A stretch of 64,000 nt of DNA from Rhizophagus irregularis. Lineage: Eukaryota. Positions within the stretch are counted from its first letter, which is position 1; every line of letters starts with the position of its first letter. The stretch is from assembly GCF_026210795.1 (NCBI RefSeq), contig NC_089436.1:248001-312000 (forward strand). The letters run 5' to 3'. The translations under genes were made by a program, and so were the position numbers. Shown here in pieces: positions 8,715-40,112 of the stretch. Below the pieces are notes generated by a model. It saw only the letters and a list, made by a program, of their open reading frames with translations, searched no databases and was not told the origin of the DNA.

Positions 8715-9196
8715 GTCGTCGGGCTGGTAGTGTGTCTCGCTAGCGCTCACCCCACCTCGGCCATGGCCTCGCAGTACCTACATCTCCCCTCCGTGGGACA
8801 GGAAATCCCCATAGATCCTCCACAATCCTCCACATAGATCCTCCACAAAAATATATAACAAAAAAGGATAAAATAAGGGAAAAGAGAGGAAAATAAGAGG
8901 GAATCAGAAGAGTGTGGAGGATGTGGAGGATGTGGAGGATGTTTTAAAAAAATCGGGAGAGGGTTCCCCCAGAAAAAAGTTTTGATTTTACCCCCCCAGA
9001 TCCTCCACATCTTCCACATCTTCCACACGTACAGGATTCCATTCATTTTCCTATTGGAAGCAATGAGATAGCAAACCGAGTTAACAGGTAGGTCAATAGC
9101 CCCTAGAAGGCCTGTAGAACCGCAGGAGGGTAACCGGGTAGGAGCGCGGATCTTTGGAAAAAATATATTCGGCAATTGAAGATTAGGTAACTATAA
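8715..9196 (+). repeat. Left terminal inverted repeat
   Basis: Near-identical reverse complement of 39632-40112; starts GTCGTCGGGCTGGTAGTGTGTC. Confidence 0.95.
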
Positions 9197-9225
9197 ATTA
9201 GTACTCGATTTAATAGAACGAAAAA

Positions 9226-11739
9226 ATGACCACTCAGGCTCAAGTTATCCCTAAATTCGGTGAACAAACGAAAGCCTTCAGTATCGATGAGCTTAAACGG
9301 CTTATTGTCGCTGCAAAGAGTATGAGTGATCTTGATCAAGCCAAGAGGTATCTTTGCAGTTATTTCATTCCCTGTGCAGATCCTCATGGGATTTTCTGGT
9401 GGGACCCGGATAGTAAAAGTTTGAAACACGTTATTGACAAAAATATTGGTAAACTTATCCGTCCAATCACGAAGGCATTCTACACACAACCTGAACAAGG
9501 ACCCTCTCAAAAGACTGAGTTCAACATCTACAAGTGGTTTATGATCGAGAATACCGATGTATGTAATGCAACCTGTGATCCCCATAAACAGCGAATCTTC
9601 AGATCCTTAACCGGCCAACTCTATCTAAATATCTTCCCAGGATTTCTCCACGTCTTGCATCCGATATCCACCTTTGAGTCTACAATTCACCTCGCGGTTA
9701 AATTTATCTTCTCCCACATTCAGGATATCTGGTGTTCGGGTGATTGGAATCTCACTGAGTATATCATCAAGTGGTTGGCCGGTGTATCTGCTGGAAGAAA
9801 GATGTACTCGATTCTCTACCTAAAATCCGGACAGGGTTGGGGTAAAGGTATTATAACAGATTTCATTCAGCGCAGCGTCCTAGGCACTCAACTCGTTTAT
9901 AAGACCAGCGATCCTCAGACGATTCTTGGAAGTTTCAATGGGCAATTACAGGGTAAGATTCTTCTTCTTCTCGAGGAAATGCCCACGGAAAAAAGCCAGT
10001 GGAATAATTTGTATCGCTCTTTGAAGGATAAGGTAACGAGTGACATAATGGAAATCCATGAAAAATACAAGACACCAACGCATTACAAGAACTTTATGTC
10101 TACTATCGTCCTAACTAACGAAAATGCTCTTAGAGTGGAGAATGATGATAGGCGCACAGTGTTCTTAGATGTGTCACCATCCCGCAAAGGAGACCTCAAC
10201 TACTTCAAAAAACTCGGTGACGTTATGAAATACCCAGGCGCCAGTGAGGCGTTCTATGCTTACTTAAGAGCCATCACAGACACTTACCCGGACTTCAATG
10301 GAAATCCGCCACCCATGACAACATCCAAACAGGAATATATCATCTCGACTCTTCCCCCGCTATTCCAATTTATAAAGGACACATACCTCGTAGTGAAAAA
10401 TTATATGACCGACCTACCTGTTCAAGAATTTTATAGGGTATATACTTTATATTGTGAAACTCATTGCATTTCACCCCTATCAAAGATAAACGCTTCTAGA
10501 ATTCTATCAAATGAGTTGGGTATAAAAAGTAAAAAAATGCGTATAGGTAAAACAACACCGCAAGTTTACAGCATATCCAGGGAGGACCTCTACAAGAAAT
10601 TCCTTGGCAAAAACTGGATTAATGAAACAGACGAGATAAATATAGAAGGAATAGATGTAGATACTCCCGAGAAGCCCACGTCTGATCCCAAAGCCTTAGA
10701 GAAGTTCTTGGCAAATATATATAGCATTCCTGCTAACAATTCACAAGACGTACAAGAAAAACCCGCTGAGAAAAAACCCAAACCTGTTATCAAAGAGCAA
10801 CCGGTTTCCAAAAGGGCGCCTCCACCGCTTCCACCCAAGCCTGACCACTTAAAAGAACGTCAACAAGAGTTAAGGGAAGAACAACCGGATCCCAATGAAG
10901 ATACTAATGAGTCAGACACCGATGAACCTATAGATAGCTTCTCAGATTGTTATCTATCTGACGAGGAACCTGACCAAGAAGAACCCATCCCCGAGCCAGA
11001 TGACTACGACATTTTAGACGACTTGTTATCAGACTCGGATTCTACAACCGTGGACCCAGTTCTTGAGCAACAACCCGCAGAATCTTCCACAAAATCCGAA
11101 TCCCTCGCAGATTCTAAATTTTCTACAGAACCTGTAGTAGTACCGGCTTCCGAAGAGCAACTTATCCCAGAACCCGACACAGAACCAGAAGTTGATCGGG
11201 ATCCTGAACCAAAGGAAGGTACTCGAGCACACTGGGCTTGGCATGAAAGGCACCGATGGGATCGCAAGCCGTGGGTTAAAAATTCAAAGGACCAGGCCTT
11301 CGATGATCTCTACAATACAGGTAAGGAATTATGGGCCAAGTACCAAGACGCGTCAGATGAATACGACTGGGAAATACTCGCGTTTGAAGTAGAGGAATGT
11401 CCTACAACGCGTATTGAGGACGAGTACCAGTACTACCTTAGGGAAGTAGTAGACCGCTTCAAGGACTGGATCGAATATAATGGATACTTACCTAAAACAC
11501 CTAGCCGTAAAGAACTCGCAGATTTAATAAGAGTATACAAGGATAATCGTGATGCCGAGATTATTCCCACCCCCTCTGGGTATGAAACTATGAGGGCAGA
11601 TAAGGGTAAAGCGCGAGAGATCCCCAAGGAATGTCCAAAAACCGATATGGAACGTGAATGGGAAGCCACCAATGGACTCATCGACGACTGGGATGAAGAG
11701 GATCTTGATCGTGTATGCAGCAAGATTGACTCCTTTTAA
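9226..11739 (+). CDS. SF3 (D5-like) helicase with C-terminal winged-helix-like region and long acidic/Pro-rich tail
   Basis: Walker A SGQGWGKG, Walker B LLLLEEM, motif C VLTN, DRR arginine finger; intact 837 aa. Confidence 0.85.
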   Translation: MTTQAQVIPKFGEQTKAFSIDELKRLIVAAKSMSDLDQAKRYLCSYFIPCADPHGIFWWDPDSKSLKHVIDKNIGKLIRPITKAFYTQPEQGPSQKTEFNIYKWFMIENTDVCNATCDPHKQRIFRSLTGQLYLNIFPGFLHVLHPISTFESTIHLAVKFIFSHIQDIWCSGDWNLTEYIIKWLAGVSAGRKMYSILYLKSGQGWGKGIITDFIQRSVLGTQLVYKTSDPQTILGSFNGQLQGKILLLLEEMPTEKSQWNNLYRSLKDKVTSDIMEIHEKYKTPTHYKNFMSTIVLTNENALRVENDDRRTVFLDVSPSRKGDLNYFKKLGDVMKYPGASEAFYAYLRAITDTYPDFNGNPPPMTTSKQEYIISTLPPLFQFIKDTYLVVKNYMTDLPVQEFYRVYTLYCETHCISPLSKINASRILSNELGIKSKKMRIGKTTPQVYSISREDLYKKFLGKNWINETDEINIEGIDVDTPEKPTSDPKALEKFLANIYSIPANNSQDVQEKPAEKKPKPVIKEQPVSKRAPPPLPPKPDHLKERQQELREEQPDPNEDTNESDTDEPIDSFSDCYLSDEEPDQEEPIPEPDDYDILDDLLSDSDSTTVDPVLEQQPAESSTKSESLADSKFSTEPVVVPASEEQLIPEPDTEPEVDRDPEPKEGTRAHWAWHERHRWDRKPWVKNSKDQAFDDLYNTGKELWAKYQDASDEYDWEILAFEVEECPTTRIEDEYQYYLREVVDRFKDWIEYNGYLPKTPSRKELADLIRVYKDNRDAEIIPTPSGYETMRADKGKAREIPKECPKTDMEREWEATNGLIDDWDEEDLDRVCSKIDSF

Positions 11740-11822
11740 TAAGATAAGCACTTCTTAGTTATCTTATATTTTTTGTATAAAAAACCTATATTACAACTGA
11801 ACACAATTCATAAATACATCAA

Positions 11823-13769: not shown

Positions 13770-14264
13770 ATGCAAAATACCGACGGATTAGGTAGACAAG
13801 ACGATGAAAGTTTCCACACGTGGGCTAAGCGCATTCAGAATGCTGTGCAATATTATGAGACTTGTAGTAGAATAGGTTTTCATAGGCGGCTACCTTATCC
13901 AAGGTCTCGTCAAGCTGTATATGCTTATATTGTGCACATTAGGAGAATAGTATCACGACTATTAAATAGGTGGTACTGTACCTACTGTAAATCTTTTATT
14001 GATCGCGGATGGGGAGCCGACGCTTCCATGGATCAAGCGGTACGACTACATTTATATAGTTGCCCGAAGCATTTTAATTTCGACTATTATACTCATCATG
14101 CTGAAATGATCCAGAAAGCCTTTAGGAGATATATAGAAAGAAGGAACAATAAAGCAGCTAGGATCATCCAGAAAGTCGCTATCCCTTGGTTATATAGACC
14201 AGGCTCTCCATTGATGCAAAAGGCCGAGCGACGCTTCTACTGTCTTGCAGTATCCCAAGTGTAA
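13770..14264 (+). CDS. Protein with C2HC Zn-binding motif and IQ-like motifs
   Basis: First ATG at 13770; CTYC...HLYSC; IQKAFRRYIER and IIQKVAIPWLYRP. Confidence 0.6.
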   Translation: MQNTDGLGRQDDESFHTWAKRIQNAVQYYETCSRIGFHRRLPYPRSRQAVYAYIVHIRRIVSRLLNRWYCTYCKSFIDRGWGADASMDQAVRLHLYSCPKHFNFDYYTHHAEMIQKAFRRYIERRNNKAARIIQKVAIPWLYRPGSPLMQKAERRFYCLAVSQV

Positions 14265-14346: not shown

Positions 14347-14817
14347 ATGTCAACATATACCGAATTCGCAAGCATTGTTAACAGCACTGACAGCACTAGT
14401 GAGGAGGTTATTTACGAGGCATCGCGCATTCAGCCTGATGTTGTCTCTGACGAAACTGTCTACAAGATTATCTGCGCATTAAAAGATACTATAGTAGTCG
14501 CATTAGTATCTGGATTTAGCAAAACCAGTTACCTCGTCCATGATCACGTGAAGTATATCAAGCGAATCCAAACGGCAAATTCTCCTGTATCATATGTGAA
14601 GTTCGTGGCTAGAAAACTCTTCCCAGATAATGCGGCATATACTGCTAAAATAGCAAAAATCCGCGAATCATACAAGAATAAACAAGCTCTCCTAGATAAG
14701 CTTGAGACCCTCTTCGAGTTGTATTATAATGTGACTAAGGACTCATCAACAGGTCCCCCAAAGCGAGCTGTCACTATGAATGAGGCTGAGAAAACCTTAG
14801 CAGAACTTCTTATATAA
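14347..14817 (+). CDS. Hypothetical protein, 156 aa
   Basis: Intact ATG ORF with the element's shared upstream motif and downstream T-tract. Confidence 0.65.
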   Translation: MSTYTEFASIVNSTDSTSEEVIYEASRIQPDVVSDETVYKIICALKDTIVVALVSGFSKTSYLVHDHVKYIKRIQTANSPVSYVKFVARKLFPDNAAYTAKIAKIRESYKNKQALLDKLETLFELYYNVTKDSSTGPPKRAVTMNEAEKTLAELLI

Positions 14818-14910: not shown

Positions 14911-15314
14911 ATGTTGGACCGATTACCAGTAGAAATAGTCGAACGCATTATCGCAAAGATCCCGGATACTGACCTTATTGCAGTGAGTAAGGTAGATAGA
15001 GTGTGGTGGCAGGAAGTTCGTCGAGAGGCATATAAGAGGTGGAAAAATTATGCCACTACGATCGGGGATGTGTACTGTGAAATCCGAGCTCTCAGAAAGC
15101 ATTATATAAAGAGGGAAATTGACTGGATAACGTTTGAAGATGTAAACGACCTCTATAAAAGATGGATAAACCGCCTTACCGAGGATTAGCTTTATATTAT
15201 GGAGAAAATGCTTAGGAATGGGATGGTCGTGGACTCCAAGAGAGGGAAACCATAGAGTATGCATTAAGTGAACAAAGATGGGGAGGCGATCCTCGGGGAC
15301 TGGGAGTGGTATGA
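14911..15314 (+). pseudogene. F-box protein, disrupted
   Basis: N-terminal LDRLPVEIVERIIAKIPDTDLIAVSKVDRVW F-box pattern; TAG at 15187-15189, coding-like sequence continues with a probable frameshift near 15236. Confidence 0.65.
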
Positions 15315-15652: not shown

Positions 15653-15757
15653 TCATCAGGTATCCTCGTGTTTCGCGACAAGGACTGATGACCATGTAAC
15701 CTCATCATCAGGCATCCTCGCATTTTTTGACAAGGACTGATGATGATAAGGACTGAT
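15653..15757. repeat. Two tandem imperfect hairpin units plus a partial third; LINE target site
   Basis: TCATCAG..TCCT..AGGA.CTGATGA (15653-15691) and TCATCATCAG..TCCT..AGGA.CTGATGATGA (15702-15746), then GATAAGGACTGAT (15745-15757). Confidence 0.85.
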
Positions 15758-15860
15758 AGATCTCTTCCCGTCGATCTATTGACCAAAAATTTTCAGAAAG
15801 AAAATTTATATATCTTCGTACTAACAACTCTTATATTTTACCCAACTCATACCTTCTAAC

Positions 15861-17984
15861 ATGTCTAGAAACCTTGCTAGAAGAGGTGGCGGCAGCTATA
15901 ATCCTAATAGTAATAAGGCTGCTCGTCAAGAAAAGAAAAATAATAAAAAACAACTCTCCGATAACTCTGGCTCCGATAGTGATAGCACTACTCAAAAACG
16001 TTCCCGCATTATCACTGATAACACCATGGATGAAGATTTCGTTGCCGACGTGCCGGCTGACGGTGGTTTAGTTGGTTCAACTTCGACCGCTATTCCTCAA
16101 CAAAATAATTCCCGCAGCACTTCTCAAGAAAATACTCAAACTTCTACCCCGAAAAATTCTGCTGCGCCCACTGCGCCTGGCCAAGACACGTCCTCTGGAG
16201 CTAACGCGTCTATTCATGCACCACGAAACAAAGAAAATAACTCATCCCCTAACGCGTCCCTTAATATGGACGTAAATGATGGTACATCGCCCGATCAGGC
16301 TGCCGATCCCTCCCCAACTATTACCATTAATCGTCAAGATTTCCTGGCTGCGGCTGCGCCCAACTCTGCTCCCCAAACTCTTGAAAAACTTAAAACTAAT
16401 AAGGCAATCATAGATGCCGTTAACAACTTATTTTTAGAAACATACGAGTCGTATACCGGTCGGGCTCGTATGACTGGTTCAGGGGACGCTAAGCGTCTTA
16501 TCATTCACTTCCATACTGCGGAGGCTCGTGACATGTGTGTTGGTAGCACACACTCTGAATTTCCGGACCTACAATTCCACCTGTACGATCCCAAACAGCT
16601 CCGGTCAGATGAAGACCTCCGTGCAATTCAAGTTACGGATATACCGTTCTTTATTACTAAACTGCAACTCCAATCCTATTTCAAGAAATTCGGCAATCTC
16701 CTTGCCCTCCATCTTTATTCAAGGAAAGGTGCTAAGATGCAACAAGCTCGCATTGTCTATGATCACGCCGATGCCATCTCCCGCTTCACAAATCAATGGG
16801 CAGTTTACTGCTTTTCCACCTGCTTACGTGTTACCCCTTGCCATTACTCTTTAGATCAAAAAGCTGCTCGAAGAGCGTTCGTGGCTGTTCTCTCTGGACT
16901 TCCCGCTAATACTAAAGATATCCATCTCGCTCCTTTGGTCAAAGAACATGGAGCAAAAGCTATTAATATTCCCCTTTCCCTAAACTCTTATAAACCCAAA
17001 CCTTGGTCTTATATTACCTTCAACTCGCAAGAAACAATGGATGCCGCTATGGAGCAAACTATTGGTTTCCAAGGTCGTACTCTTCGATGGGGTACATCCA
17101 ATGATTCGAAAGCTCTTTGCCACCGATGTGGTAAACTCGGTTGTGCTCCTACCTCCTGCCCGCTTAATCAACGCCGAGGTCGTTCACGTACACGTGACCC
17201 TGTGGCTGCTCTTAAAGAACGTTTCAACATCGGCCATAGACCTGCCCAACAAAAAACGCCGCGCAACAATTCTCGTTCTCGTTCTCGGTCTAAATCTCAG
17301 GATCGTTCTGCTTCTGCTCAACGTTCTAATTACAATTCCAATAGCTCTAATACTAATGGTAATAACAATAACAATAACAAACCCTCCTCCTCTGGTTCAG
17401 CCCATTCCTCCTCATCTGCCCATGGATGTACACCTTCCAACAACCGTAAAGGCAAAGATAGATCTGTTTCCTTTTCGTCCAATGCTCGCGCTCCACTTCC
17501 TGATCCGAATTCTTCTAATGCCCTCGAGGCTGCCCTTAAGATACTTAACGTATTGCAAACTCTTCAACAAGATGTTGCACGTGTGGAATCTCGCATCTCG
17601 ACACTTGAACTTAACAATCAACGGCTGTCTGCTATTGAAGCTCACCTAGGCATCAATCCTCCCTCCGTACCTGTTGTCATTTCTAAACCTGATCGGATGG
17701 AAGAAGACCCTCCCGAAACTACTGGTACCTTAATCCCACATCCTAATGCTCCTTCGTCTTCTGGAACTATGAAATCCGCTCCCCCCAAATCTGCGCTTTC
17801 CAATGTTTCACATTCTGTTCCCATAACCAACTCCAACCCTTCCCCGCAAGATGAATTGAACTCTGTTATTCAAGATCAAAAAGCGATTAAAGATACCTTG
17901 CAATCGCTCACTGGTTCCATCCAAGGTTTTATTGCTTCTCTTGGTGGTTCTTCCTCCGATCGAGCTTTGGCTCCTTCGCAATAA
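15861..17984 (+). CDS. LINE ORF1 (RRM-like domains, Cys/His knuckle, RS-rich region, coiled coil)
   Basis: IQVTDIP...FKKFG and SYITFNSQE RRM-like patterns; CHRCGKLGC; intact 707 aa. Confidence 0.85.
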   Translation: MSRNLARRGGGSYNPNSNKAARQEKKNNKKQLSDNSGSDSDSTTQKRSRIITDNTMDEDFVADVPADGGLVGSTSTAIPQQNNSRSTSQENTQTSTPKNSAAPTAPGQDTSSGANASIHAPRNKENNSSPNASLNMDVNDGTSPDQAADPSPTITINRQDFLAAAAPNSAPQTLEKLKTNKAIIDAVNNLFLETYESYTGRARMTGSGDAKRLIIHFHTAEARDMCVGSTHSEFPDLQFHLYDPKQLRSDEDLRAIQVTDIPFFITKLQLQSYFKKFGNLLALHLYSRKGAKMQQARIVYDHADAISRFTNQWAVYCFSTCLRVTPCHYSLDQKAARRAFVAVLSGLPANTKDIHLAPLVKEHGAKAINIPLSLNSYKPKPWSYITFNSQETMDAAMEQTIGFQGRTLRWGTSNDSKALCHRCGKLGCAPTSCPLNQRRGRSRTRDPVAALKERFNIGHRPAQQKTPRNNSRSRSRSKSQDRSASAQRSNYNSNSSNTNGNNNNNNKPSSSGSAHSSSSAHGCTPSNNRKGKDRSVSFSSNARAPLPDPNSSNALEAALKILNVLQTLQQDVARVESRISTLELNNQRLSAIEAHLGINPPSVPVVISKPDRMEEDPPETTGTLIPHPNAPSSSGTMKSAPPKSALSNVSHSVPITNSNPSPQDELNSVIQDQKAIKDTLQSLTGSIQGFIASLGGSSSDRALAPSQ

Positions 17985-18031
17985 CTGACTTCTCACTTCC
18001 TTTCCCCGTACTTTATTATCATTGTGCTCTA

Positions 18032-23652: not shown

Positions 23653-24043
23653 TAATGGGCGCATTATTCGTTGGTTTGTTTGCATAGTTGCTTCTTCTTA
23701 GGTTGGAATATATCTAGGCGGGGGATCAGGATAGTTTTAGTGTTATGCGATTTTTTCCTTTTCGAATTAATTTTATAGCTTTATTACTGTTTTGGAGACT
23801 ATATAGTTTTATTTTTAGTTATTTTTATTTTTCTACTTTTGTACTTTAAAAAAATTTTATGTTATTTTTGTAAGTTCGATAAATAAATTTAATAAAGATA
23901 AAGGCTACTATGCCATGTTTGCCTTGACAAGGACTGATATAGATCTCTTCCCATCGATCTATTGACCAAAAATTTTCAGAAAGAAAATTTATATATCTTC
24001 GTACTAACAACTCTTATATTTTACCCAACTCATACCTTCTAAC

Positions 24044-26167: not shown

Positions 26168-26214
26168 CTGACTTCTCACCTCCTTTCCCCGTACTTTATT
26201 ATCATTGTGTTCTA

Positions 26215-29200: not shown

Positions 29201-31835
29201 TTCGGCAACCAGCAGTATCCGTTCTTTGGTTAAACATAAGGCCAATTTTTCACGTACACTCCCAGATTCTATCTTGTTTTTATCTCAAGGCTTGGGATTG
29301 ATTAATTTATTTTTTCATCAATCACAAACACATTTAACTAATTTATTTTTATTAGCTAATTCTTCTTTTTCCTTTATGAAAAATCTATTTTTATATAGAT
29401 TACGTTTAATTCAATTTTCCTTTTTGATTCCTATTTCCCCATTGTTAGTTAAAGATTGGACTTTATGGTCTAAACTTTTTGCTTTTAAACAGGATTATAT
29501 CGCTTGCACTATTGCTCTCCTGACCACCACTCCTTTTGAGTTGTCACGTCCACGACTTTCAACCTTGCCTGACCTTACTATACCTGATGGTCATACACCT
29601 TTATTTGATGTTATGACTCTAAATATTTTTATATCTTACTTCCGACGTCTTAGAAGTTTGCAACTTTATTACCTATCTCAATTTATTACACCCCAAGGAA
29701 CCCATATGATTACTTGGAATGTTTATTTATCCAATCTATCAAGTAGGAAAGGTCATCGAGTCCTCCCACATAAGTGGTTCGTTGACATCCACCAATGCGT
29801 CACGGTTCCAAATTCCAACTCTCTGCTCTTGGATCAATTCTCTTCCGAAGCTATTTCTTCAATTATTGATTTGGTTCCAGCCTTTGGTTTCTCCAGAAAA
29901 TCCATGAAATGGATCGTGACTTTAGACGAAGATGGCTCTCCTCTTTTTGGAAAACAACTCAGCAAACAACAATATTCTTGCAAGATTGTCCATTGGACCT
30001 CTGATTGTGTGACTCGACCTAATGATGTTATCACGCTCACTCCTTGTCCTGGTTGTTCTAAACATGTACCGGTTTCTCATACTAAAAACCAACCATCCGA
30101 TGTTACTCCTTTATGTATCATCCCAAAACTTTCTCCACTTAGATCTTTAATTCTCCCAACAACGCAGGAGCGTATTAGACATGACACCACCAATATTACT
30201 TCTCCCTTTACTTGGGCAGACCTTGATGAATCTGTACGATCATACTATGGTCGTCTGGACATTCAACCTAATTTTTCACAAGCAGAAGTGGTTATTCTCC
30301 CTTCTCCTTCTCTCCCTCCTACTCTGGACTCGGCTGCCTCTCTTGCTTTTGCTGCCTCCCCGTTAGCGACTCCTCCTGACAACCATTATTGTTTTTATAC
30401 TGATGGTTCCTTAATCAACCTTGGCACTCCTGATGTTTCAATGGGTTGGTCTTGGGTTCAAGTCCTAGATGGCGCTGGTTTTTTCCAATCTATCGCTGCT
30501 TATGCTCATGGAATTATCCATAATTGGCCTTCCTCTACAAGAGCTGAAACCGCTGCTATACATGCCGCCCTCACAGTCACTCCTCCTTCTTCAACGGTCA
30601 CTATTTATACTGACTCTCAATCAGCCATAGATGGTCTTCGTCTATGTGATTCTTCTTCTTATTCCAATAGCAGGCTTTATTACAAGACCACTAATTTTGA
30701 ACTCTGGGCTATTATTGAACATCTTATCTCCTCCAAGTCTTTGTCAGTCATGGCTGTTAAAGTGAAAGGTCACTCTGGTAACTTTTACAATGACTACGCG
30801 GACTCTTTGGCCAACTCTGCGCATACTTCTTCTTCAGCAATCCTTCTCTCTGATCTGGATCAAGTATCTCCTCACGATTTCATATTAAAATATGATGATA
30901 TTTTATGTGAATCCAATCCTCGACGCCTATTCAAGCAATATTCGCAAATGCTGTGGATGCATAGATTGTCGCATTTATCGCGTTTTAACTTTATTATTAC
31001 TTTATCTTCCATTTCAGATTTCGTGATTGATTGGGATCTTACCTGGTTCTTATTAAACTCTGAACCTCAACACGATGCCTCTTTTACTCGTGCTCATGCT
31101 TCCTCTCATCACACCTTCAAATTTAAACTCTTTTTGGAAGATTTACCAACTCTGGAACTTCTTAAAAGAATTCGCCCGGACTTGTATATCGACATTTTAT
31201 CATGTCATTCGTGCCTCGACTCCAAGGAAGATTTCATGCACTTGTTTATATGCAAATGTAGACGAATCGCTATGGAACAGATTCTCCTCTCCTATCAAAA
31301 ACATTTTATTAACAAACTCCAAGAAGCTGGTGATCTCATTAAAAAAGATCCGTCTTTAATTATTAATAAATTTACATCTCTTCCTTGTTGGTCCTTCTCC
31401 TCTTCAAATTGGACCTCTTATAGTCTTGTCCATGGCTGCCTTCCAAAATCCTTTGTCGAATTTTTTGAAGAACTTTCCGTTCCACGTAACTCAGCGATGA
31501 AGGTTATCTCTACTATCCACAATCACTTTATCCAAAAGATCAGAAAACGCATTTGGCTACCGCGCACCTATGATAAATCAAAATGGGAAGACGCGATGAA
31601 TATCACTCAAAAACTTAAACTTTCTCGGCCTTCTAATTTGCCAAAGTCCACGTACTTACCTTTCTCCACTTTACCTCCTCCGACCCTTTCCGACGCTGCA
31701 CGTGACTCTGACGTTGATTATTTAAAGAACTCGATGAAATATGGTTTGCCTTGGTTTAATCACTACTCGGGTTTTATGGGTCGTCTAACGGTGCAACTTA
31801 CTAACAGCTTTAGCAGGGTGGTGTGTCGATTTTAA
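26215..31835 (+). pseudogene. LINE ORF2, copy 2; 5' lesions, RT-RNase H part open (26868-31835)
   Basis: Frameshift near 26270 and TGA at 26856-26858 where copy 1 has CGA; same domain motifs as copy 1. Confidence 0.9.
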
Positions 31836-32187
31836 CAATGGGCACATTGTTCGTTGGTTTGTTTGCATAGTTGCTTCTTCTTAGGTTGGAATATATCTAG
31901 GCGGGGGATCAGGATAGTTTTAGTGTTATGCGATTTTTTCCTTTTCGAATTAATTTTATAGCTTTATTACTGTTTTGGAGACTATATAGTTTTGTTTTTA
32001 GTTAATTTTATTTTTCTTTTTGTACTTTAAAAATTTTTATGTTATTTTTGTAAGTTCGTTAAATAAATTTAATAAAGATAAAGGCTACTATGCCATGTTT
32101 GCCTTGACAAGGACTGATGACGATGTCACTTGGTTATTGTAAATTGAAGATAACAATTAGGTATGTAGACACGTACAGAAAAAAGAC

Positions 32188-32772
32188 ATGTCATACCCTT
32201 ATATAACTAATCCTATAACCGGACGTCCAATCCGTGTTGGTGGAGATACCTTTAATCGAATAGTTATGGAATCCCATGATTATATCGATGGAAGGCTTGT
32301 CCGTAGACAAACCGCACCGCCTCCACCCCAGGAACAACCTGTATATTTAAATACAGATACAGGACGCTATATTCAACACGGTACTAGAACGTATCATAGA
32401 CTGGTTGAGAGTGACTATGAGGTAGTTGAGGATTACTACCTTGTCCATTATGAAGAAGAGGCGCTTATAGAGGAAATCATCAATGAAACACGCTATAATG
32501 AGGAAAATCTTGATAGCCAGCGGTTAACTTTCAATGATATACAACAAATCAGGGCCGCTATTCAGACTGACCAAGATGAATATGATGATTTTATATTACA
32601 GCAAGATACGACTAACGGGACACCTTCCTCCGGTCCTTCCGGTCATCCACGAACTTTGAAGGACCATGCCCCGAGACTTGCAGAGCTTAATATCGAGTTG
32701 TGTAGGGAATGTCTCATGCCTGTAAGCCCAAGTGACTTAACGGACAAGTTATGCAAGGACTGCGCTTTCTAA
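32188..32772 (+). CDS. Protein with two 2-cysteine-adaptor-like repeats and C-terminal Zn ribbon
   Basis: NPITGRPIRVGGDTFNRI and NTDTGRYIQHGTRTYHRL; CREC...CKDC. Confidence 0.65.
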   Translation: MSYPYITNPITGRPIRVGGDTFNRIVMESHDYIDGRLVRRQTAPPPPQEQPVYLNTDTGRYIQHGTRTYHRLVESDYEVVEDYYLVHYEEEALIEEIINETRYNEENLDSQRLTFNDIQQIRAAIQTDQDEYDDFILQQDTTNGTPSSGPSGHPRTLKDHAPRLAELNIELCRECLMPVSPSDLTDKLCKDCAF

Positions 32773-32956: not shown

Positions 32957-33516
32957 ATGTCAACATCAATCGTAATAAACCAGTGTCAGAACTGTGGAGT
33001 ATTCTCTGCAAAAGCGGCATATAGAGGATTATCCAGCGTGTTGTATAGACAGATTATAAAGAAGATTGGCGACGAGAGTGAACCTTTACAAGCCTTGGGA
33101 CTTGCCAGGGATAAGTTGGTCCAGATTATTCGTCGGGCAAGTAATGCGGATTTTACACAATTATTCACACAAAGACTGGATATGAAAATTATGGACGGAG
33201 ATTCATACGAGGATACTAGGAAGTGGTTTCTTGAACAGCTTATAGCCATTGGATGTGACAGTGGGGAAATTGCCTTATATCAGTTCTTACAGAATACATA
33301 CCCGGATGGTATTGACGAACCCTTTACTACATTCTATGAGAACTATGTAAGTCATGTAAGAAATCCGATGACTAAGAACTTTGCTTCTCGAGCCTTAGGA
33401 GCTATTGGGTTAAAAGCTAGGATGCTACGGATTGACTTCGAAGGACGTAAAAAAGCGCCATGATTCTTAGGGCTTCTGAGGAAGAACTTCGCGAGATTCT
33501 TACAAAATACTATTGA
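32957..33516 (+). CDS. Protein paralogous to the helicase C-terminal (winged-helix-like) region; probable 1-bp frameshift near the end
   Basis: LYQFLQNTY...FYENY...PMTKNFASRALGAIGLK aligns by eye with helicase LFQFIKDTY...FYRVY...PLSKINASRILSNELGIK; as sequenced stops at 33463, one more A at 33449-33454 extends it to 33516. Confidence 0.6.
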
Positions 33517-34723
33517 TCCCTACTCGTAATGCTCGACGGTCCATATGACCCTTAGAAAAGATCTGTAAAAGGACCCCGATGCCTTCTATTATTTTTTTAT
33601 TATCCAAAGGGTAACTAGACTTCAGGACTTCATATCGGGAGAATAACTCCTTTACGGTCTCAGGTTTTGGAATTTCAGTCTTTGTGGTCCTATCCCGTAC
33701 TTTTGCTAAGAAGTTTTGGAAGTCTGATCCCAGGGTCTTACCAGATAGTCCGTAGGCTTCCCGAAAGACGTACTTAATCCAGGTATCTGCGTTCTTAGCT
33801 ATAACACCGGATACGAGGAGGTGTTTTCTCTCTTTAGGCGATGGATATTCCCGAGCAAACTCGATTAGCTGGGAGGACTTTTTTGCTTCAGCTACGGCTT
33901 TCTGGCCATAAGGACTAAACTTCGATCGAACTGGGTTCAAACTCGGATTGAACGGGGATCGAACTGGGTTCAAACTTGGATCGAACGGGGATCGAACTGG
34001 GTTCAAACTCAGATCGAACTGAGATTGATCAGTGATCGAACTGAGACTAGTATCCCATCTAACCCGAATAGATAACGGATCGCTCTTGGATCTTCTAAGA
34101 TCAAATACTATAAATTCGCGTTGTAAAGTAAGGTCATCGATTACTGGAGCTAGTGACTCCGATTCTTCTGTATACTGGCGGATGATCCTCTTAGTATCGG
34201 TCAAACTTCCGTGACCTCCATGTAGGGAAATATAATTCACATTTTCACGAATAGCCTTGGGAATGGTAAAGAATCTTTGGGCCACATAGATACATGAAAT
34301 ATTTTTGTGTCGTCCGTGTGTAAAAAATCCAGTGATGAGATCCTGGGTTTTTTTAGGCGCATCCATCAAATCCTTGAAGATTACCACAGTAGCCTGGGTG
34401 GAGTTGAAGTCCTTAACATTTGGAATCTCACTATGGGATACTGCGGTAAACGGAATTTCTTCTTCTTTGAAAAAATCACGTACGACTGCCCACTTCGGTT
34501 CATCGAGGTATCTGCCAACTAGAATTACTGCATCACATAATATGTACCTTTCGCCATCCTCCTTTGCCTTCTTGTCTCCCATTAACAAATTAATGATCAT
34601 AGTTGTCTTACCCGAGTCAGAACTTCCTGCTACGGCAAGACGGAAAGGCCATGATGGGGCAAACTCATTACCCTGTCTTGAGTCGGTCGTGTACTCGTCC
34701 AAATTGTATACATAAAGATCCAT
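33500..34723 (-). CDS. A32-like (FtsK/HerA superfamily) DNA packaging ATPase
   Basis: Walker A GSSDSGKT, Walker B VVIFKDL, FTHGRHKNISCIYVAQ and IRENV signature. Confidence 0.88.
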   Translation of the reverse strand: MDLYVYNLDEYTTDSRQGNEFAPSWPFRLAVAGSSDSGKTTMIINLLMGDKKAKEDGERYILCDAVILVGRYLDEPKWAVVRDFFKEEEIPFTAVSHSEIPNVKDFNSTQATVVIFKDLMDAPKKTQDLITGFFTHGRHKNISCIYVAQRFFTIPKAIRENVNYISLHGGHGSLTDTKRIIRQYTEESESLAPVIDDLTLQREFIVFDLRRSKSDPLSIRVRWDTSLSSITDQSQFDLSLNPVRSPFDPSLNPVRSPFNPSLNPVRSKFSPYGQKAVAEAKKSSQLIEFAREYPSPKERKHLLVSGVIAKNADTWIKYVFREAYGLSGKTLGSDFQNFLAKVRDRTTKTEIPKPETVKELFSRYEVLKSSYPLDNKKIIEGIGVLLQIFSKGHMDRRALRVGINSIL

Positions 34724-34754: not shown

Positions 34755-35438
34755 ATGTCGACACCAATTGCAATTTATACTCCTTCAGAGCCTACTGGAC
34801 CGCCTCCTAGGGATTTGCGTGATATGAATAATATACCATTAGTTGCGGTAATTAAGGATCAAACAGATTTTTTAACTGTCAGTGATCGCATGGTTGTTAA
34901 TCGAGATGTACAAAATGCAAACCATCGTCTTAAACATGCTCTTAATTTATTAATTCATCGCTGTAGAGAAACATACGAAGAACGCGATATATTAAAAGCA
35001 GAACGCGATCGATCTCGAAAAGAACGCGATGAATTACAAGATGAATTCGAGGTTCAAGCAGGTTTGTTAGGTCTTACACAAGATGAGCTAAATATCGTAC
35101 AAGATACTATTACTGGTTTAGAAGCTAATTTGGCTGAATTGGAACGTGAGTTTGGTGGTATGCGGATGACTAATCGTCGTCTTCAGCAGCAATATAATCT
35201 TATGAGAGGAGAACGTAATAGAGCTATAGGTGAGCGTGATGTGGCACGAAATTGGCTTGTATATGCCAATAATCGGGTTCTTTTTGGAATTCGGACATTG
35301 GGACGTCTTAGGAATCGACTTTTCCAACAAATAGCTGCTCTGCGTATCCAAGTACAATGGTTTCGGATTAGACAATTGAACCCTCCTCCACCTCCTCTCA
35401 ACCATCCACAAAATACGATATGGCTGCTGTTGGTATAG
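34755..35438 (+). CDS. Coiled-coil protein, possibly the N-terminal part of Gag
   Basis: Heptad-like E/R/L-rich region, poly-Pro end; overlaps Gag ATG by 19 nt. Confidence 0.6.
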   Translation: MSTPIAIYTPSEPTGPPPRDLRDMNNIPLVAVIKDQTDFLTVSDRMVVNRDVQNANHRLKHALNLLIHRCRETYEERDILKAERDRSRKERDELQDEFEVQAGLLGLTQDELNIVQDTITGLEANLAELEREFGGMRMTNRRLQQQYNLMRGERNRAIGERDVARNWLVYANNRVLFGIRTLGRLRNRLFQQIAALRIQVQWFRIRQLNPPPPPLNHPQNTIWLLLV

Positions 35439-36906
35439 CTGCCCCCATATTTCATGGTCGGGAAGATGAAGATCTTAATCTTTTTATTGATAACTTTTTA
35501 GGGTATATTAATACCGTTGGTATTGATCCATTGGACGATGCTGGTGTACCCCCTGGTCGGGTGAGAGCGATGGGGGTTCTTCGTAGCTGTATGAGAGATG
35601 AAGCGGCGAGGTGGTTTGATGCAGAACTTACTGGAAAAAATTGGGAACTCTCGAATATTCGGTTAGTGGCTGCTGCAAATGGTGGAGTCAGTGCCACTCG
35701 CCGAGCATTCAGAGCTTTGGCTGTTCCTGAGGTTGCTAATGGATTACATGTTGGTACTTACTTACCTGGGTCTGATGCTGATGCATTTTCAAGGATTGCA
35801 GGTAATGCGGCGGTAACCGTTGGAGATGCATTTTTCCCATCACGCGCTGATATCGTTAGAACGAATTTTAAAGTTGAAGAGCAGTGGAGGCGTGCGGGCG
35901 GACGTCCTACTCATCAACCCGTTAATGGGTTGGGAAATCATGGAGGTCCATTTAATGCTGCTGTTCAGAATCAACCGATAGTCTTACAGGGGATTCTCCT
36001 GGATCAAGCATTTATGCATATGCGCACAAATTTTCCAACCGTTGTGGAAGAAAGACTTCAAATACGATTTAGTAACCTTTACCAGGAACAAGGTGAACCT
36101 GTTCGATCTTACTATAAGCGAGTTGAGAGGGCTGGGATATTGTAGGATATAATCAAATTATGGTTACTGACCAGTTCTATAGAGGACTTTTGCCGGAAAA
36201 CGTTATTGAAGCTTCCAGAATCGGGGCGGCACCTCTTAATATATTAATCGATAGATTGAGTGATCTTGAGCGATGAAAGGGCGAAATGTTCTATGGATTA
36301 CAAAGGCGTCAGGGTATTGAAAAGGCTAAAAAAGAGGAATTGGCTGGCTATACTCATCCCGTGACTCCACACGAAGGTGCTGTAATGCAAAGGTCGACAG
36401 ACGTTATTACTCAAGAACGATTACAAGAATTGCTTAAGACACAGGCCGAGGAACTTACCAAGAATTTCCAGGCGCAATTTAAACAATTACAAGCATTTAA
36501 ACCAGTTCGTAAACCACTGGTCTATAGACAACAGATTAAACCTGTTCGACCAAAACCACAGAGACGTGTTGTTCAGGATCATCAGGATCCTGATTGGGAT
36601 GATGGTTATGTAGATCATGATGTTGGTGATGACCCTGATGCTCCTGAATGGACTAGTGAGGATGATCAACATGTTATTGATCTTATTATGGGATATGAGA
36701 CGTCTAAAAGATTTCCAAAGCGACTTCAGAAGGCTAAAGATAGACGCGATGATTTGGAATTAGCCCGAGCAATGAGAAACCTCGATCTTAATGATGATGC
36801 TATGGATATTGATACTAATACCGCGAGTTTTGATGACTTGAAATTTGTTCCCGATGAGGAAGGTGGTTTTCGGATTTGTGCGGTTCGAAGTACAAAAAAA
36901 AAGTAA
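35420..36906 (+). pseudogene. gag: Ty3/Gypsy-like Gag (capsid) gene with two lesions
   Basis: APIFHGREDEDLNLFIDNF start, AARWF, MHR-like LYQEQGEPVRSYYKRV; a 1-bp shift near 36142 gives LGYNQIMVTDQFYRGLLPE; TGA at 36274-36276 is in frame with the 36286-36906 ORF. Confidence 0.7.
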
Positions 36907-37625
36907 ACTCGGATAAGGGTGTAAGTATCTCGAAACTTCTTAAATCTGTTCCAAAAAAATCAGTTAAAATGACTCCTATTAAGATTCCTGTGAAGGTTAC
37001 TAGTAGTAAGCCCACACTTATAAAAGCTGTCACCAAAAATAATTCATTAAGTTTATTAAGGTCTGCAGATTTTAGGAAATTACTCCGCGAGATTCTTTGG
37101 GAAGAATTAAAGTCTGCTCGTAAAAGTACGGAGATTCTGGAAGACCTAGTTGAGGAAAAACAAGAAGAGGATATTAGGGAAGATGACCCAATGGATATTG
37201 ACATAGTTCGTTTGGAGAATACTAAAGATCTTTTAGCGCTGGATGGGGAGGTCAATGGGATAGCAATTCAGTGTTTAGCAGACACTTGTGCTAACGCGTC
37301 TTTTATTCAGAGAGAAGCCGCTGAGGAATTAGGGTTGGATATCGACAAGAGTATTACACATAACATATCCGGCGCTCCGGGTTCTGGTAGGACATTCGGC
37401 ATGGTAAAAGGTGTGTCAATCAAACTAACCCCTGATTGTGTAATTACTGAGAATCTCGCGGTTTTAAGCGATTACAAGCATAGGGAGATTGGATTGAGCC
37501 GGACGTGTCTGAAACGTTACAATTATGATGTCCATGAATCACGTGAACATATCGCCCTTACTTGTAATGAGAAGAATGTTTTTATCCCGATAGTTTCTGA
37601 CGTGAATCGAGGAGACAAAAAATAG
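36876..37625 (+). CDS. Retropepsin-like aspartic protease, in -1 frame relative to Gag
   Basis: GEVNGIAIQCLADTCANASFIQREAAEELGL, flap-like ISGAPGSGRTFG; DTC instead of DTG. Confidence 0.75.
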   Translation: MCGSKYKKKVNSDKGVSISKLLKSVPKKSVKMTPIKIPVKVTSSKPTLIKAVTKNNSLSLLRSADFRKLLREILWEELKSARKSTEILEDLVEEKQEEDIREDDPMDIDIVRLENTKDLLALDGEVNGIAIQCLADTCANASFIQREAAEELGLDIDKSITHNISGAPGSGRTFGMVKGVSIKLTPDCVITENLAVLSDYKHREIGLSRTCLKRYNYDVHESREHIALTCNEKNVFIPIVSDVNRGDKK

Positions 37626-37639
37626 GGAATATTTATTTT

Positions 37640-38731
37640 TTATTCCCAAAACTTGCGGATTAAAGCAGGGACATCCTCCTCCAACCGGTCAGCGGGTTCC
37701 CAAGTGGCTTCAGTATCTGGGTATCGTTCCCACTTGACTAGATACTGGTCTTGACCCTTCCTGATGCGATGCCGGAGTATCCGCTCAGGTACAAATCTTT
37801 CAGGTTGCCCTCTTATCACAGAGTCAGGTGGGGGATATTCATTTTCTGGAACAATCTGCAACTCTTTTCGGGTGTACGCACATCTGGATACACCTAGTCG
37901 CCCGTGTGGTCCATCAAGAAGATACGTAGGAGGTTGTTCGGGTGAGAGTATCATTTTTTTGATGACACGGATATTGGGATTCCATCTTATGTCTCCTGTA
38001 CGAAATTTTCCATGGAGTTTATTACCGAGTACTGAGATAGGTTCATCTAACTTTACTCGAACACGCGTTCCTTCAGAGAGAAGTTCCGTCTTTTTTGACA
38101 CCTTGGGTGACCCAGTCGGAATATCTGGAGGATTTCTTTGCCAGATTTCATCTATTTTATTAACTACATCATGGAAATCTTCTGACCATTCCACGGATGT
38201 CACCCTGGTCTTCAACTCCTGTGCCACCATTCGTTTTAGGAGAGGCTCCTGGATCGCTTGGATAGCTCGTTCAGCGTATGATTGCTGTTTGTGTCTTCCC
38301 GACTCTCCAAACCTCATCATCACCCCTAGGCTGTTCAGGAAAAAATCACGTACCTGATCATTGGTGAATTCTGATCCGGAGTCTGTCTCCATTCGATGTG
38401 TTGGTGGTTTAATGCGATTTCTTCTGTAGATTTTAACAAATCCATTGAGAACCCTATTTGCAATCTTATCCTTTAGGGGTTCTGCGTCAACTCGTTTACC
38501 CGCAACTTCCACCACTACGAGAAAATAGTGGAATCCTTTGGGGTCGACTGGCATCTCTGCGAGATCTGCCTGATGCGTCGCATTTGGTTTCCATACAACT
38601 ACTCGTGGACGCTCTGATGACTTTTCCTTTAGGGGCTTTTTGTATAGGTTGTAGTGCTCCTCACCTTTTAGAATTCGTGCTGGTACTCTGGAGAGATTGT
38701 AGTATTTGTAGTAATTCTCTAAATGCGACAT
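37640..38731 (-). CDS. int: Retroviral-type DDE integrase with C-terminal chromodomain
   Basis: HQADL, ETDSGSEF, YAERAIQ triad; ERILRHR...YLVKWERYPDTEATWEP chromodomain; first ATG at 38731. Confidence 0.92.
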   Translation of the reverse strand: MSHLENYYKYYNLSRVPARILKGEEHYNLYKKPLKEKSSERPRVVVWKPNATHQADLAEMPVDPKGFHYFLVVVEVAGKRVDAEPLKDKIANRVLNGFVKIYRRNRIKPPTHRMETDSGSEFTNDQVRDFFLNSLGVMMRFGESGRHKQQSYAERAIQAIQEPLLKRMVAQELKTRVTSVEWSEDFHDVVNKIDEIWQRNPPDIPTGSPKVSKKTELLSEGTRVRVKLDEPISVLGNKLHGKFRTGDIRWNPNIRVIKKMILSPEQPPTYLLDGPHGRLGVSRCAYTRKELQIVPENEYPPPDSVIRGQPERFVPERILRHRIRKGQDQYLVKWERYPDTEATWEPADRLEEDVPALIRKFWE

Positions 38732-39096: not shown

Positions 39097-39105
39097 TACC
39101 GCCTT

Positions 39106-39621
39106 CTAAAAGTATTCCTCATCATCTGAGTCATCGAGAGATACCTCTCCATCATCTGATTCATCATCCGAGTCGTCAGGAGTGCGACCTTCCTTAAGCA
39201 ATTGGATGTTGTACGTTATTTGAGTCCATTTCTCCCAGTCGGACTCTTGCGTTATAAAGTCGCATCTGAGAAGAGCTTTTTCTACTGCCACCATTCCTGC
39301 GAACCTAGTGTATTTTTTCTGATCGGCTTCAATGAAATCATCAACGGCTTTCCTGTAGTGGTCTACCGCCCTGTCGTATTTCTCCTTGGCTTCTTTATAT
39401 CGCTTCCACAACTCGGCTTTACAACCATTGTACCAGAGTCTGTTTATCTTGAGATGTTTTCCGAATTCTTTGATCGGAAGGTTTCTGACCATCTCTCTTA
39501 CTATATCCGGGTCATTGAGGGGCGATGCCCGCATTTGGATCCATTTACGGATTCCATAGATGTCTACAAGATCAAGTCCGAGGTCTTCAGCAAGAGAAGT
39601 GGCGGCGTGTAAGTTTATCAT
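39106..39621 (-). CDS. Hypothetical protein, 171 aa, acidic C-terminus
   Basis: Intact ATG ORF starting 11 bp inside the right TIR boundary. Confidence 0.65.
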   Translation of the reverse strand: MINLHAATSLAEDLGLDLVDIYGIRKWIQMRASPLNDPDIVREMVRNLPIKEFGKHLKINRLWYNGCKAELWKRYKEAKEKYDRAVDHYRKAVDDFIEADQKKYTRFAGMVAVEKALLRCDFITQESDWEKWTQITYNIQLLKEGRTPDDSDDESDDGEVSLDDSDDEEYF

Positions 39622-39631
39622 TGTATGTTAC

Positions 39632-40112
39632 TTATAGTTACCTAATCTTCAATTGCCGAATATATTTTTTCCAAAGATCCGCGCTCCTACCCAGTTACCC
39701 TCCTGCGGTTCTACAGGCCTTCTAGGGGCTATTGACCTACCTGTTAACTTGGTTTGCTATCTCATTGCTTCCAATAGGAAAATGAATGGAATCCTGTACG
39801 TGTGGAAAATGTGGAAGATGTGGAGGATCTGGGGGGTAAAATCAAAACTTTTTTCTGGGGGAACCCTCTCCCAATTTTTTTAAAACGTCCTCCACATCCT
39901 CCACATCCTCCACACTCTTCTGATTCCCTCTTATTTTCCTCTCTTTTCCCTTATTTTATCCTTTTTTGTTATATATTTTTGTGGAGGATCTATGTGGAGG
40001 ATTGTGGAGGATCTATGGGGATTTCCTGTCCCACGGAGGGGAGATGTAGGTACTGCGAGGCCATGGCCGAGGTGGGGTGAGCGCAAGCGAGACACACTAC
40101 CAGCCCGATGAC
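39632..40112 (-). repeat. Right terminal inverted repeat
   Basis: Reverse complement of 8715-9196; ends CAGCCCGATGAC. Confidence 0.95.

What the first reader, a model, noticed from the sequence alone, without database searches (positions are those of the whole stretch)
8715..40112. Polinton-like DNA element carrying retrotransposon-type Gag and aspartic protease instead of a jelly-roll capsid module
Seen: a TIR/TSD-bounded element with PolB, SF3 helicase, A32 ATPase and DDE integrase. After removing the LINEs nearly all ~15 kb is assigned to ORFs, and none looks like a long beta-rich capsid or an adenain. Between ATPase and integrase (34755-37625) lie a coiled-coil ORF, a Gag-like ORF and a retropepsin. 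The module starts 31 bp from the ATPase start and ends 14 bp from the integrase stop, so there is no room for LTRs. There is no RT/RNase H, and the integrase is on the opposite strand, so this is not a nested Gypsy. Known: typical Polintons encode double and single jelly-roll capsid proteins and an adenovirus-type cysteine protease. Inference: a chimeric dsDNA virus-like element that may package its DNA in a retroviral-fold capsid matured by its own protease. Polintons in this fungal group are probably not new as a class; this morphogenetic module may be.
Basis: partly seen in the sequence, partly recalled or inferred. Interest (0 to 1): 0.95.

Follow-up and report, generated by a model that had tools for sequence, protein, structure and literature searches.

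The report
Fungal Polinton with retroviral-type capsid gene
A family of virus-like DNA transposons in root-symbiotic fungi has no recognisable gene for the usual viral coat and instead carries a retrotransposon-type capsid gene and protease but no reverse transcriptase, so it may wrap its DNA in a retrovirus-style shell, which has not been tested.

Summary
Observation confirmed. 8715-40112 is a Polinton/Maverick of a Rhizophagus irregularis-type fungus: 482-bp TIRs, 5-bp TSD, helicase, short protein-primed PolB, A32 ATPase, chromodomain integrase; 15.0 kb once two tandem LINEs are removed.

The Gag models confidently (pLDDT 91) as a two-domain retroviral/Ty3 capsid. All top 36 structural matches are CA proteins. 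It carries a ~120-residue insert with no known fold.

The block is a family trait, not a nested Gypsy. All 17 soil-metagenome relatives with enough upstream DNA have coiled-coil and gag head-to-head with the ATPase (ATPase 45-83% identical). Protease follows in 8 of 8, through a -1 overlap at exactly nine As (10 of 10 junctions). dN/dS is mostly 0.13-0.5. No RT-bearing parent and no jelly-roll or adenain candidate was found.

This copy is decayed. Particle formation and DNA packaging are untested.

Prior art: Glomus Polintons were listed as ATPase-positive and capsid-less (Krupovic 2014). A figure legend in Starrett 2021 labels 'Matrix/Capsid/NC/Pro' on an element that is probably the deposited Rhizophagus MELD virus, without discussion.

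The parts
8710..8714 (.). left target-site duplication ATTGG
8715..9196 (+). left terminal inverted repeat, 482 bp
9226..11739 (+). D5-like SF3 helicase (DUF5906) with acidic tail, 837 aa
   Evidence: homologues in L036, L041
11823..13676 (+). short protein-primed-type PolB, 617 aa; motifs A/B/C kept; no exonuclease motifs seen by eye
13770..14264 (+). small ORF, 164 aa, weak IQ-motif hit
14347..14817 (+). conserved small ORF, 156 aa, function unassigned
   Evidence: L010, L026, L027
14911..15335 (+). F-box-like ORF, broken after 15189 in this copy
15744..23938 (+). inserted LINE copy 1 (RRM ORF1; endonuclease-RT-RNase H ORF2)
23925..32118 (+). inserted LINE copy 2, tandem, 93% identical to copy 1
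32188..32772 (+). conserved ORF, 194 aa, weak 2C_adapt hit
32957..33463 (+). conserved ORF, 168 aa, usually next to the ATPase
33500..34723 (-). A32-type packaging ATPase, 407 aa (Walker B altered in this copy)
34755..35438 (+). coiled-coil ORF, 227 aa, overlapping the gag start by 19 bp; matrix-like position
35420..36906 (+). gag: two-domain retroviral/Ty3-type capsid, long helix, spacer; no CCHC knuckle; frameshift near 36133 and stop at 36274 in this copy only
35633..35995 (+). ~120-aa domain inserted between helices 3 and 4 of the capsid N-terminal domain; no structural match
36894..36902 (+). run of nine As at the gag/protease -1 overlap; likely slippage site
   Evidence: 10 of 10 junctions
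36858..37625 (+). retropepsin ORF in the -1 frame: basic linker, then Ddi1/Ty3-like protease with D-T-C-A site
37640..38731 (-). rve (DDE) integrase with C-terminal chromodomain, 363 aa
38779..39096 (+). DUF5679 small ORF, 105 aa
39106..39621 (-). small acidic-tailed ORF next to the right TIR, 171 aa
39632..40112 (-). right terminal inverted repeat
40113..40117 (.). right target-site duplication ATTGG

Best explanation
This is a decayed copy of a fungal Polinton family that keeps a coiled-coil gene, a retrotransposon-type gag and a retropepsin gene between its packaging ATPase and its integrase, has no recognisable jelly-roll capsid gene, and likely uses Gag particles to carry its linear DNA between nuclei and hyphae.

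Shown here: the anatomy, the predicted capsid fold, family-wide gene order, the conserved -1 overlap at nine As, purifying selection, and no RT in any relative found.

Inferred steps: (1) The excised element is copied from its TIRs by PolB and the helicase, as in other Polintons (established knowledge). (2) Gag is made from its own ATG, and a minority Gag-Pro fusion arises by slippage at the A9 run. Constant run length across different codon phases and only weak downstream folding fit transcriptional slippage at least as well as ribosomal frameshifting. (3) Gag assembles a shell that the protease matures, with the inserted domain probably facing outward. (4) The shell takes up the 15-kb DNA with integrase, helped by the retained ATPase, as an intracellular particle suited to a multinucleate, fusing mycelium. 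Step 4 is the weakest.
For: Fold: AlphaFold2 model of a natural open sister copy (P0016, 314 aa, 74 sequences), pLDDT 90.7, pTM 0.80. Among 48,161 solved chains, ranks 1-36 (Z 9.8-5.9) are all retroviral, Ty3, Copia, Arc, PEG10 or PNMA capsids, covering both domains; the first unrelated chain is Z 4.8. All 31 rows shown by Foldseek-PDB are CA proteins, though none reaches E 0.001. 33 of 74 aligned homologues hit Retrotrans_gag at E<=0.1. ESM Atlas top hits are Retrotrans_gag at 0.93-0.94.

Gene order, found with an ATPase query that is blind to gag: of 47 metagenome loci, 36 include the ATPase start. 34 of 36 have the coiled-coil ORF head-to-head. 17 of 17 with at least 1,100 bp upstream, plus L028, carry gag; these 18 are 12 groups at 90% identity. 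Protease follows in 8 of 8 that reach far enough (4 groups), and integrase tail-to-tail in 6 of 7. L010 holds INT-Pro-Gag-CC-ATPase-PolB on one 11-kb contig; L041 holds Gag-CC-ATPase-PolB-helicase.

Expression signals: nine As and a -1 protease frame at 10 of 10 junctions (6 groups); own gag ATG overlapping the CC stop by 16-19 nt in 12 of 14 loci.

Selection: dN/dS 0.13-0.52 in 6 of 7 gag pairs and 0.28-0.39 in 6 of 6 protease pairs (pairs not independent).

No RT family was listed for any of 110 close gag relatives (longest 921 aa) or 43 second-clade protease relatives (longest 1,096 aa). The 150 representative hits reach at most 893 aa; 14 long ones scanned had no RT.

Krupovic 2014 report that capsid-less Polintons tend to lose ATPase and protease together. 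Here the ATPase stays conserved (dN/dS mostly 0.1-0.3) beside gag.
Against: No particle, expression or binding data. Every known user of this capsid fold packages RNA first (established knowledge). The clade of this copy lacks the CCHC knuckle (0 of 110).

A 15-kb duplex needs an inner diameter of about 37 nm at phage-like density or 46 nm at half that (densities recalled). Ty3 T=9 has a radius of about 24 nm to the CA layer, so the fit is tight, and CA lattices have no known portal for an A32 motor.

Gag and ATPase do not track each other closely: Spearman 0.20, Mantel p 0.054 over 14 elements; window versus L001 is 91% in ATPase but 37% in Gag. That argues against a rigid ATPase-capsid interface.

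The protease site is D-T-C-A or D-S-A-S in most of this clade, not D-T/S-G, so activity is uncertain. One near-identical gag pair gave dN/dS 2.0, and the coiled-coil ORF is weakly constrained (0.42-0.82, 3 pairs). Hosts of the metagenome contigs are unknown.
Confidence: 0.5

Rival explanations
1. Gag forms PEG10/Arc-like particles that carry RNA or proteins (element mRNA, integrase, or decoys against host silencing), while the element's DNA moves without a shell; the ATPase is kept for another DNA-translocation job.
For: Architecture matches PEG10 (coiled coil, CA, -1 protease; recalled), and PEG10/Arc/PNMA are among the closest folds. The second clade keeps a CCHC knuckle (21 of 41). Gag and ATPase trees are only weakly congruent.
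Against: The module sits exactly where the missing capsid module would be needed, head-to-head with the ATPase within tens of bases in 34 of 36 loci. Without RT, packaging RNA cannot spread the element.
Confidence: 0.27
2. Gag-Pro is a non-assembling accessory: a scaffold for replication compartments, or a restriction factor that poisons competing LTR retrotransposons (like Ty1 p22/Drt2).
For: Fast turnover and swapping of the CA part; an endogenised Ty1 CA-CTD restriction factor is among the structural matches (rank 36).
Against: Both CA domains, the post-CA helix, a ~470-490-aa length, the slippage run and the protease are all kept over deep divergence. No LTR family with this gag was found to be a target.
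Confidence: 0.13
3. A true but unrecognised jelly-roll capsid exists, in a small ORF or supplied in trans by a helper element or giant virus, and gag-pro is a passenger.
For: Polinton capsids are often too divergent for Pfam; the presumed capsid ORF of control contig L048 also had no Pfam or PDB hit. The small ORFs were not folded.
Against: No unassigned ORF above 200 aa in the element. Of 111 ORFs of at least 200 aa in 47 loci, the 7 unassigned are a long PolB, an F-box protein, a 215-aa ORF, one antisense frame and three from a bacterial chimera. Glomus Polintons were already scored capsid-negative.
Confidence: 0.07
4. The block is the eroded remnant of a Gypsy element that inserted into this Polinton.
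For: This copy's gag is broken, and gag-pro is of retrotransposon origin.
Against: Sister copies are open at both breaks. The same order holds in 12 divergent groups. No LTRs, no RT, and purifying selection.
Confidence: 0.03

Closest known systems
Glomus/Rhizophagus Polintons P_Gi1.1, P_Gi1.2 and Polinton-1_GI (Krupovic, Bamford, Koonin 2014, PMC4028283; passages and three rows of supplementary Table S1 read)
   Same: Same fungal genus. P_Gi1.2 (11,019 bp) is scored ATPase +, major capsid -, penton -, protease -. Bellas and Sommaruga 2021 (PMC7805220, passages) repeat that no capsid gene was detectable.
   Different: No gag or retropepsin is mentioned ('gag' has 0 hits in both main texts). Those elements are 11-12 kb, this one 15 kb.
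Rhizophagus glomeromycete fungus MELD virus (NCBI taxid 2707321), probably the element labelled Matrix/Capsid/NC/Pro in Starrett et al. 2021 Fig. 5 (PMC8502044; section 3.4 and legend read)
   Same: The legend lists retroviral Gag/retropepsin labels and a D5-like superfamily 3 helicase among elements with Polinton-type PolB.
   Different: The figure itself and supplementary Table S1 could not be seen (supplement text cut), so the link between label and fungus is my inference. The text read does not discuss the module, and gives no test of conservation, selection, fold or the slippage site.
Canonical Polintons/Mavericks (Polintoviricetes)
   Same: TIRs, TSD, protein-primed-type PolB, rve integrase with chromodomain, A32 ATPase.
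   Different: No double or single jelly-roll capsid or adenain found; gag-pro instead; shorter PolB; SF3 helicase present.
Ty3/Gypsy Gag-Pro and its domesticated forms PEG10, Arc, PNMA (Ty3 structure: Dodonova 2019, PMC6525542, passages read)
   Same: Four-helix NTD plus CTD capsid fold; Ddi1/Ty3-like protease; protease reached through a -1 shift as in PEG10 (recalled).
   Different: No LTR, RT or RNase H; integrase on the other strand; ~120-aa insert in the NTD; no zinc knuckle in this clade; carried by a DNA element.
Caulimoviruses (pararetroviruses)
   Same: DNA genome inside a shell of this capsid fold; their coat proteins appear as weak matches.
   Different: They package RNA and reverse-transcribe it (established knowledge); this element encodes a DNA polymerase and no RT.

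Membership tests
Polinton/Maverick | long TIRs and 5-6-bp TSD | tested here: met
   482-bp TIRs, 5-bp TSD
Polinton/Maverick | [quoted passage not shown] | tested here: met
   PF03175 E 1e-5, just below cut-off; motifs A/B/C in 6 of 6 copies; short, activity untested
Polinton/Maverick | retroviral-type (rve) integrase | tested here: met
   rve E 2e-7 and Chromo E 9e-18
Polinton/Maverick | A32/FtsK packaging ATPase | tested here: met
   Pox_A32 E 3e-10; conserved family
Polintoviruses (jelly-roll virions) | double jelly-roll major capsid protein | tested here: not met
   no unassigned ORF above 200 aa in the element or room for one; no tblastn hit with the presumed capsid ORF of control contig L048 (a weak single probe)
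Polintoviruses (jelly-roll virions) | single jelly-roll penton | tested here: inconclusive
   small ORFs gave no such Pfam or PHROG hit but were not folded
Polintoviruses (jelly-roll virions) | adenovirus-type cysteine protease | tested here: not met
   no Peptidase_C5 hit; the motif scan finds the control L048 ORF only
Ty3/Gypsy LTR retrotransposon (Metaviridae) | Gag with two-domain CA fold | tested here: met
Ty3/Gypsy LTR retrotransposon (Metaviridae) | retropepsin | tested here: met
   catalytic Asp invariant in 12 of 12, third motif residue often not Gly
Ty3/Gypsy LTR retrotransposon (Metaviridae) | RT and RNase H in the same pol gene as protease and integrase | tested here: not met
   protease ends at a stop; integrase antisense; no RT in relatives
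Ty3/Gypsy LTR retrotransposon (Metaviridae) | flanking LTRs | tested here: not met
   no repeat pair above 15 bp; 31- and 14-bp spacers
Virus (forms genome-containing particles) | capsid protein encloses the element's genome | not testable with these tools

The most novel reading that the evidence does not exclude
Glomeromycete Polintons are DNA viruses that replicate without reverse transcription, replaced their whole jelly-roll virion module with a retrotransposon Gag-protease module, and package 15-kb linear dsDNA in a retroviral-fold shell with a new surface domain, with help from the ancestral A32 ATPase. That would be a capsid swap between two virus realms.
Probability: 0.4. Interest if true: 0.95.

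Novelty: new variant of a known kind. Interest (0 to 1): 0.82.

Why it matters
It offers an answer to an open oddity: mycorrhizal Polintons keep a packaging ATPase but have no detectable capsid. If Gag is their shell, a retroviral-fold capsid would enclose DNA that was never RNA. Capsid lineages that anchor virus classification would then have been exchanged between Polinton-type and retro-type elements.

It would also suggest how large DNA elements move among the many nuclei of arbuscular mycorrhizal fungi, where Mavericks are reported as expanded (PMC11952901, passages). The claim is directly testable by expressing Gag and Gag-Pro from a natural intact copy.

Tried and rejected
No whole genome is held for this window, so copies could not be counted or aligned end to end.

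Complex prediction (ATPase with Gag) was not available; nothing was folded and no verdict exists.

Viral-contig scans: the ATPase alignment gave 1 locus, an ordinary Polinton-like virus contig L048, used as control. Clade-2 Gag and PolB gave none. The Gag alignment was too diverse to scan.

The inserted domain folded alone (pLDDT 84) matched 0 of 48,161 chains at Z>=2 and nothing credible in the viral library. This does not prove a new fold.

Sequence searches against solved structures: single-sequence search missed CA; the Gag profile gave PEG10 CTD at only E 0.019, below a spurious RGP1 hit; the PolB profile found no polymerase.

No RNA holder was listed, so nothing is said on expression. 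Contig depths are similar over PolB, ATPase, gag, protease and integrase but are not used as copy number.

Contig co-occurrence of gag and ATPase gene models (25 shared of 51 and 41; 6 of 17 small contigs) is only suggestive. The 110 proteins are gene models with false introns, several per locus, and P0100 looks like this very copy, so they are not 110 independent copies.

The genomic setting of the second Gag clade (one ORF: coiled coil, CA, CCHC, DTGS protease, stop; Rhizophagus, Entrophospora, Diversispora, Racocetra) could not be read. Its coiled coil did not match the Polinton coiled-coil profile significantly.

Literature: nine full-text searches. 'polinton + retropepsin + capsid' returned only the two versions of Starrett et al. 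Subscription papers, Repbase and GenBank annotations were not searchable. Four look-ups in the scan's own findings gave nothing on this element.
Full report
What is there. The window is A+T-rich fungal DNA; close homologues of the gag gene are all named Rhizophagus irregularis. A higher-GC block at 8715-40112 is bounded by 482-bp TIRs, 98.3% alike, and a 5-bp duplication ATTGG. A contig in another run diverges right after 40112, and one flank contig stops aligning at 8714, which supports both ends. Two tandem LINE copies fill 15744-32118. The remaining 15,023 bp are 86% coding. Pfam assigns an SF3-type helicase, a short PolB (weak), an A32 ATPase, a retropepsin and an rve-chromodomain integrase.

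This copy is decayed. Its gag has a one-base gap near 36133 and a stop at 36274; contigs from four other runs are open at both, as are sister gene models. The ATPase Walker B differs from 27 of 27 relatives. I therefore folded a natural open sister copy (P0016), not a repaired one.

Is the ORF a Gag? Yes, at the level of a confident prediction. The 314-residue model has pLDDT 90.7. Against 48,161 solved chains, ranks 1-36 are all retroviral, Ty3, Copia, Arc, PEG10 or PNMA capsids (Z 9.8-5.9, both domains), and the first unrelated chain scores 4.8. These Z values are modest for a helical protein, and Foldseek gave no E under 0.001. The uniformity of the hits, 33 of 74 homologues matching Retrotrans_gag and the Atlas result carry the call. 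About 120 residues are inserted between the third and fourth helices of the N-terminal domain. Ty3 helices 1-4 equal HIV helices 2-4 and 7 (PMC6525542, passages), so the insert lies where HIV has its extra helices; that it faces outward is my inference. Folded alone it is ordered (pLDDT 84) and matches nothing.

Is it part of the element or a nested remnant? I searched soil metagenomes with the ATPase alone (47 loci). Of 36 loci that include the ATPase start, 34 have the coiled-coil ORF head-to-head; the other two have under 170 bp upstream (the coiled-coil profile was built from nine of these loci). All 17 loci with at least 1,100 bp upstream carry gag, as does L028. These 18 fall into 12 groups at 90% identity, with ATPases 45-83% identical to the window's. 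The protease follows in 8 of 8 loci long enough (4 groups), and the integrase faces it in 6 of 7; L026 has another small ORF there. One group (L021, L024, L031) pairs the module with a different, long PolB. P0008, a gene model of another R. irregularis copy, begins with the antisense reading of the ATPase and runs into coiled coil and gag, showing the same adjacency. The hosts of the metagenome contigs are unknown; named gag relatives are glomeromycetes.

Signals of function. At 10 of 10 gag ends (6 groups) the protease lies in the -1 frame behind exactly nine As, in differing codon phase, with only weak downstream folding, -7 to -9 kcal/mol. Gag has its own ATG overlapping the coiled-coil stop by 16-19 nt in 12 of 14 loci. 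dN/dS is 0.13-0.52 in 6 of 7 gag pairs (one near-identical pair 2.0), 0.28-0.39 in 6 of 6 protease pairs and 0.42-0.82 in 3 coiled-coil pairs (only pairs above 55% identity were printed, and pairs share sequences). The catalytic Asp is invariant in 12 of 12 proteases, but the motif is often D-T-C-A or D-S-A-S; the nearest solved proteins are Ddi1 and Ty3 protease. Gag evolves faster than the ATPase and is swapped between elements: rho 0.20, Mantel p 0.054, and window versus L001 91% in ATPase but 37% in Gag.

No retrotransposon parent was found. No RT was listed among 110 close relatives or 43 relatives of a second-clade protease, and none was found in 14 long relatives scanned. The second clade is a single ORF of coiled coil, capsid, CCHC knuckle and DTGS protease ending in a stop; its genomic setting is unknown. 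These searches can miss long polyproteins.

No jelly-roll module was found. The element has no unassigned ORF above 200 aa. In the 47 loci, 7 of 111 ORFs of that size were unassigned, and none is a plausible capsid. Probes from a control Polinton-like contig found the ATPase and PolB but no capsid, penton or adenain. The small ORFs were not folded, so a penton is not strictly excluded.

How it most likely works. Replication and integration follow the Polinton pattern (established knowledge). Gag, with a little Gag-Pro made by slippage, likely builds a shell matured by the protease. The best reason for a DNA element without RT to keep such a shell beside a conserved packaging ATPase is to carry its own DNA, probably inside the multinucleate, fusing mycelium. 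Krupovic 2014 note that capsid-less Polintons tend to lose ATPase and protease together, which makes the retention here meaningful. Against this: the fold is known only for RNA-first packaging, 15 kb is a tight fit in a Ty3-sized shell, there is no known portal, and Gag does not track the ATPase. I put this mechanism at 0.5, with RNA- or protein-carrying particles the main rival.

What is known. Polintons in this fungus are known and were scored capsid-less: P_Gi1.2 has ATPase but no capsid, penton or protease (PMC4028283 Table S1 rows; PMC7805220 passages). A 2026 preprint mentions fungal A32 ATPases from fragmented assemblies with no mention of gag (10.64898/2026.06.19.733378, passages). [quoted passage not shown] I could not see the figure or Table S1, so the match is inferred, but likely. 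In nine searches of the held library I found no paper that analyses the module.

Verdict. Real, conserved and strange. It is a Polinton by TIR, PolB, integrase and ATPase; it is not a jelly-roll polintovirus and not an LTR retrotransposon. It is a new variant of a known kind, probably labelled once in a figure and apparently not examined. Interest 0.82; 0.95 if DNA-filled Gag particles are shown.

Noticed in passing
window 15677-15760, 23926-23940, 32106-32125: Both LINE copies sit at the same 13-15-bp motif (GACAAGGACTGAT), itself repeated in the Polinton's spacer. A contig in run X12 shows the LINE-free junction (table 5c). This may be a LINE that prefers a Polinton target site.
   Followed up: partly
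window 11823-13676: PolB is only 617-641 aa in 6 aligned family members, with a Cys...His pattern resembling an OTU protease near the N-terminus (recalled) and no exonuclease motifs seen by eye; possibly a proofreading-less polymerase.
   Followed up: partly
window 8715-8723 and 40104-40112: The termini read GTCGTC and GTCATC, a 3-base repeat like the ends used for jump-back priming in adenovirus (recalled), rather than the AG ends usual for Polintons (recalled).
   Followed up: no
L001:2-1194 and P0239 versus window 34755-36130: The capsid part appears swapped at the gag ATG: near-identical coiled-coil end and ATPase but 37% identical CA.
   Followed up: partly
L007:2508-2882, L010:6269-6793, L036:2128-2850, window 14911-15335: The family carries variable F-box genes; in L007 an F-box is fused to a piece resembling the capsid C-terminal domain.
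   Followed up: no
L012:2041-3045: Bacterial ABC-transporter-like sequence joined to the ATPase contig; probably an assembly chimera.
   Followed up: no
L048 (viral contig, 15.9 kb): An ordinary Polinton-like virus with ATPase, adenain-like protease and long PolB whose PolB is 41% identical to that of L024.
   Followed up: partly
window 3354-4090 and 40340-41470: Arrays of short palindromic units with ~50-bp and ~120-bp periods; the second begins just right of the element.
   Followed up: no
window 54583-57113: Long ORF with 108/216-bp repeats resembling Sel1-repeat genes typical of this fungus (recalled).
   Followed up: no
window 48282-48376 and 53072-53166: A 95-bp inverted repeat pair 4.7 kb apart enclosing minus-strand ORFs; probably a DNA transposon.
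   Followed up: no
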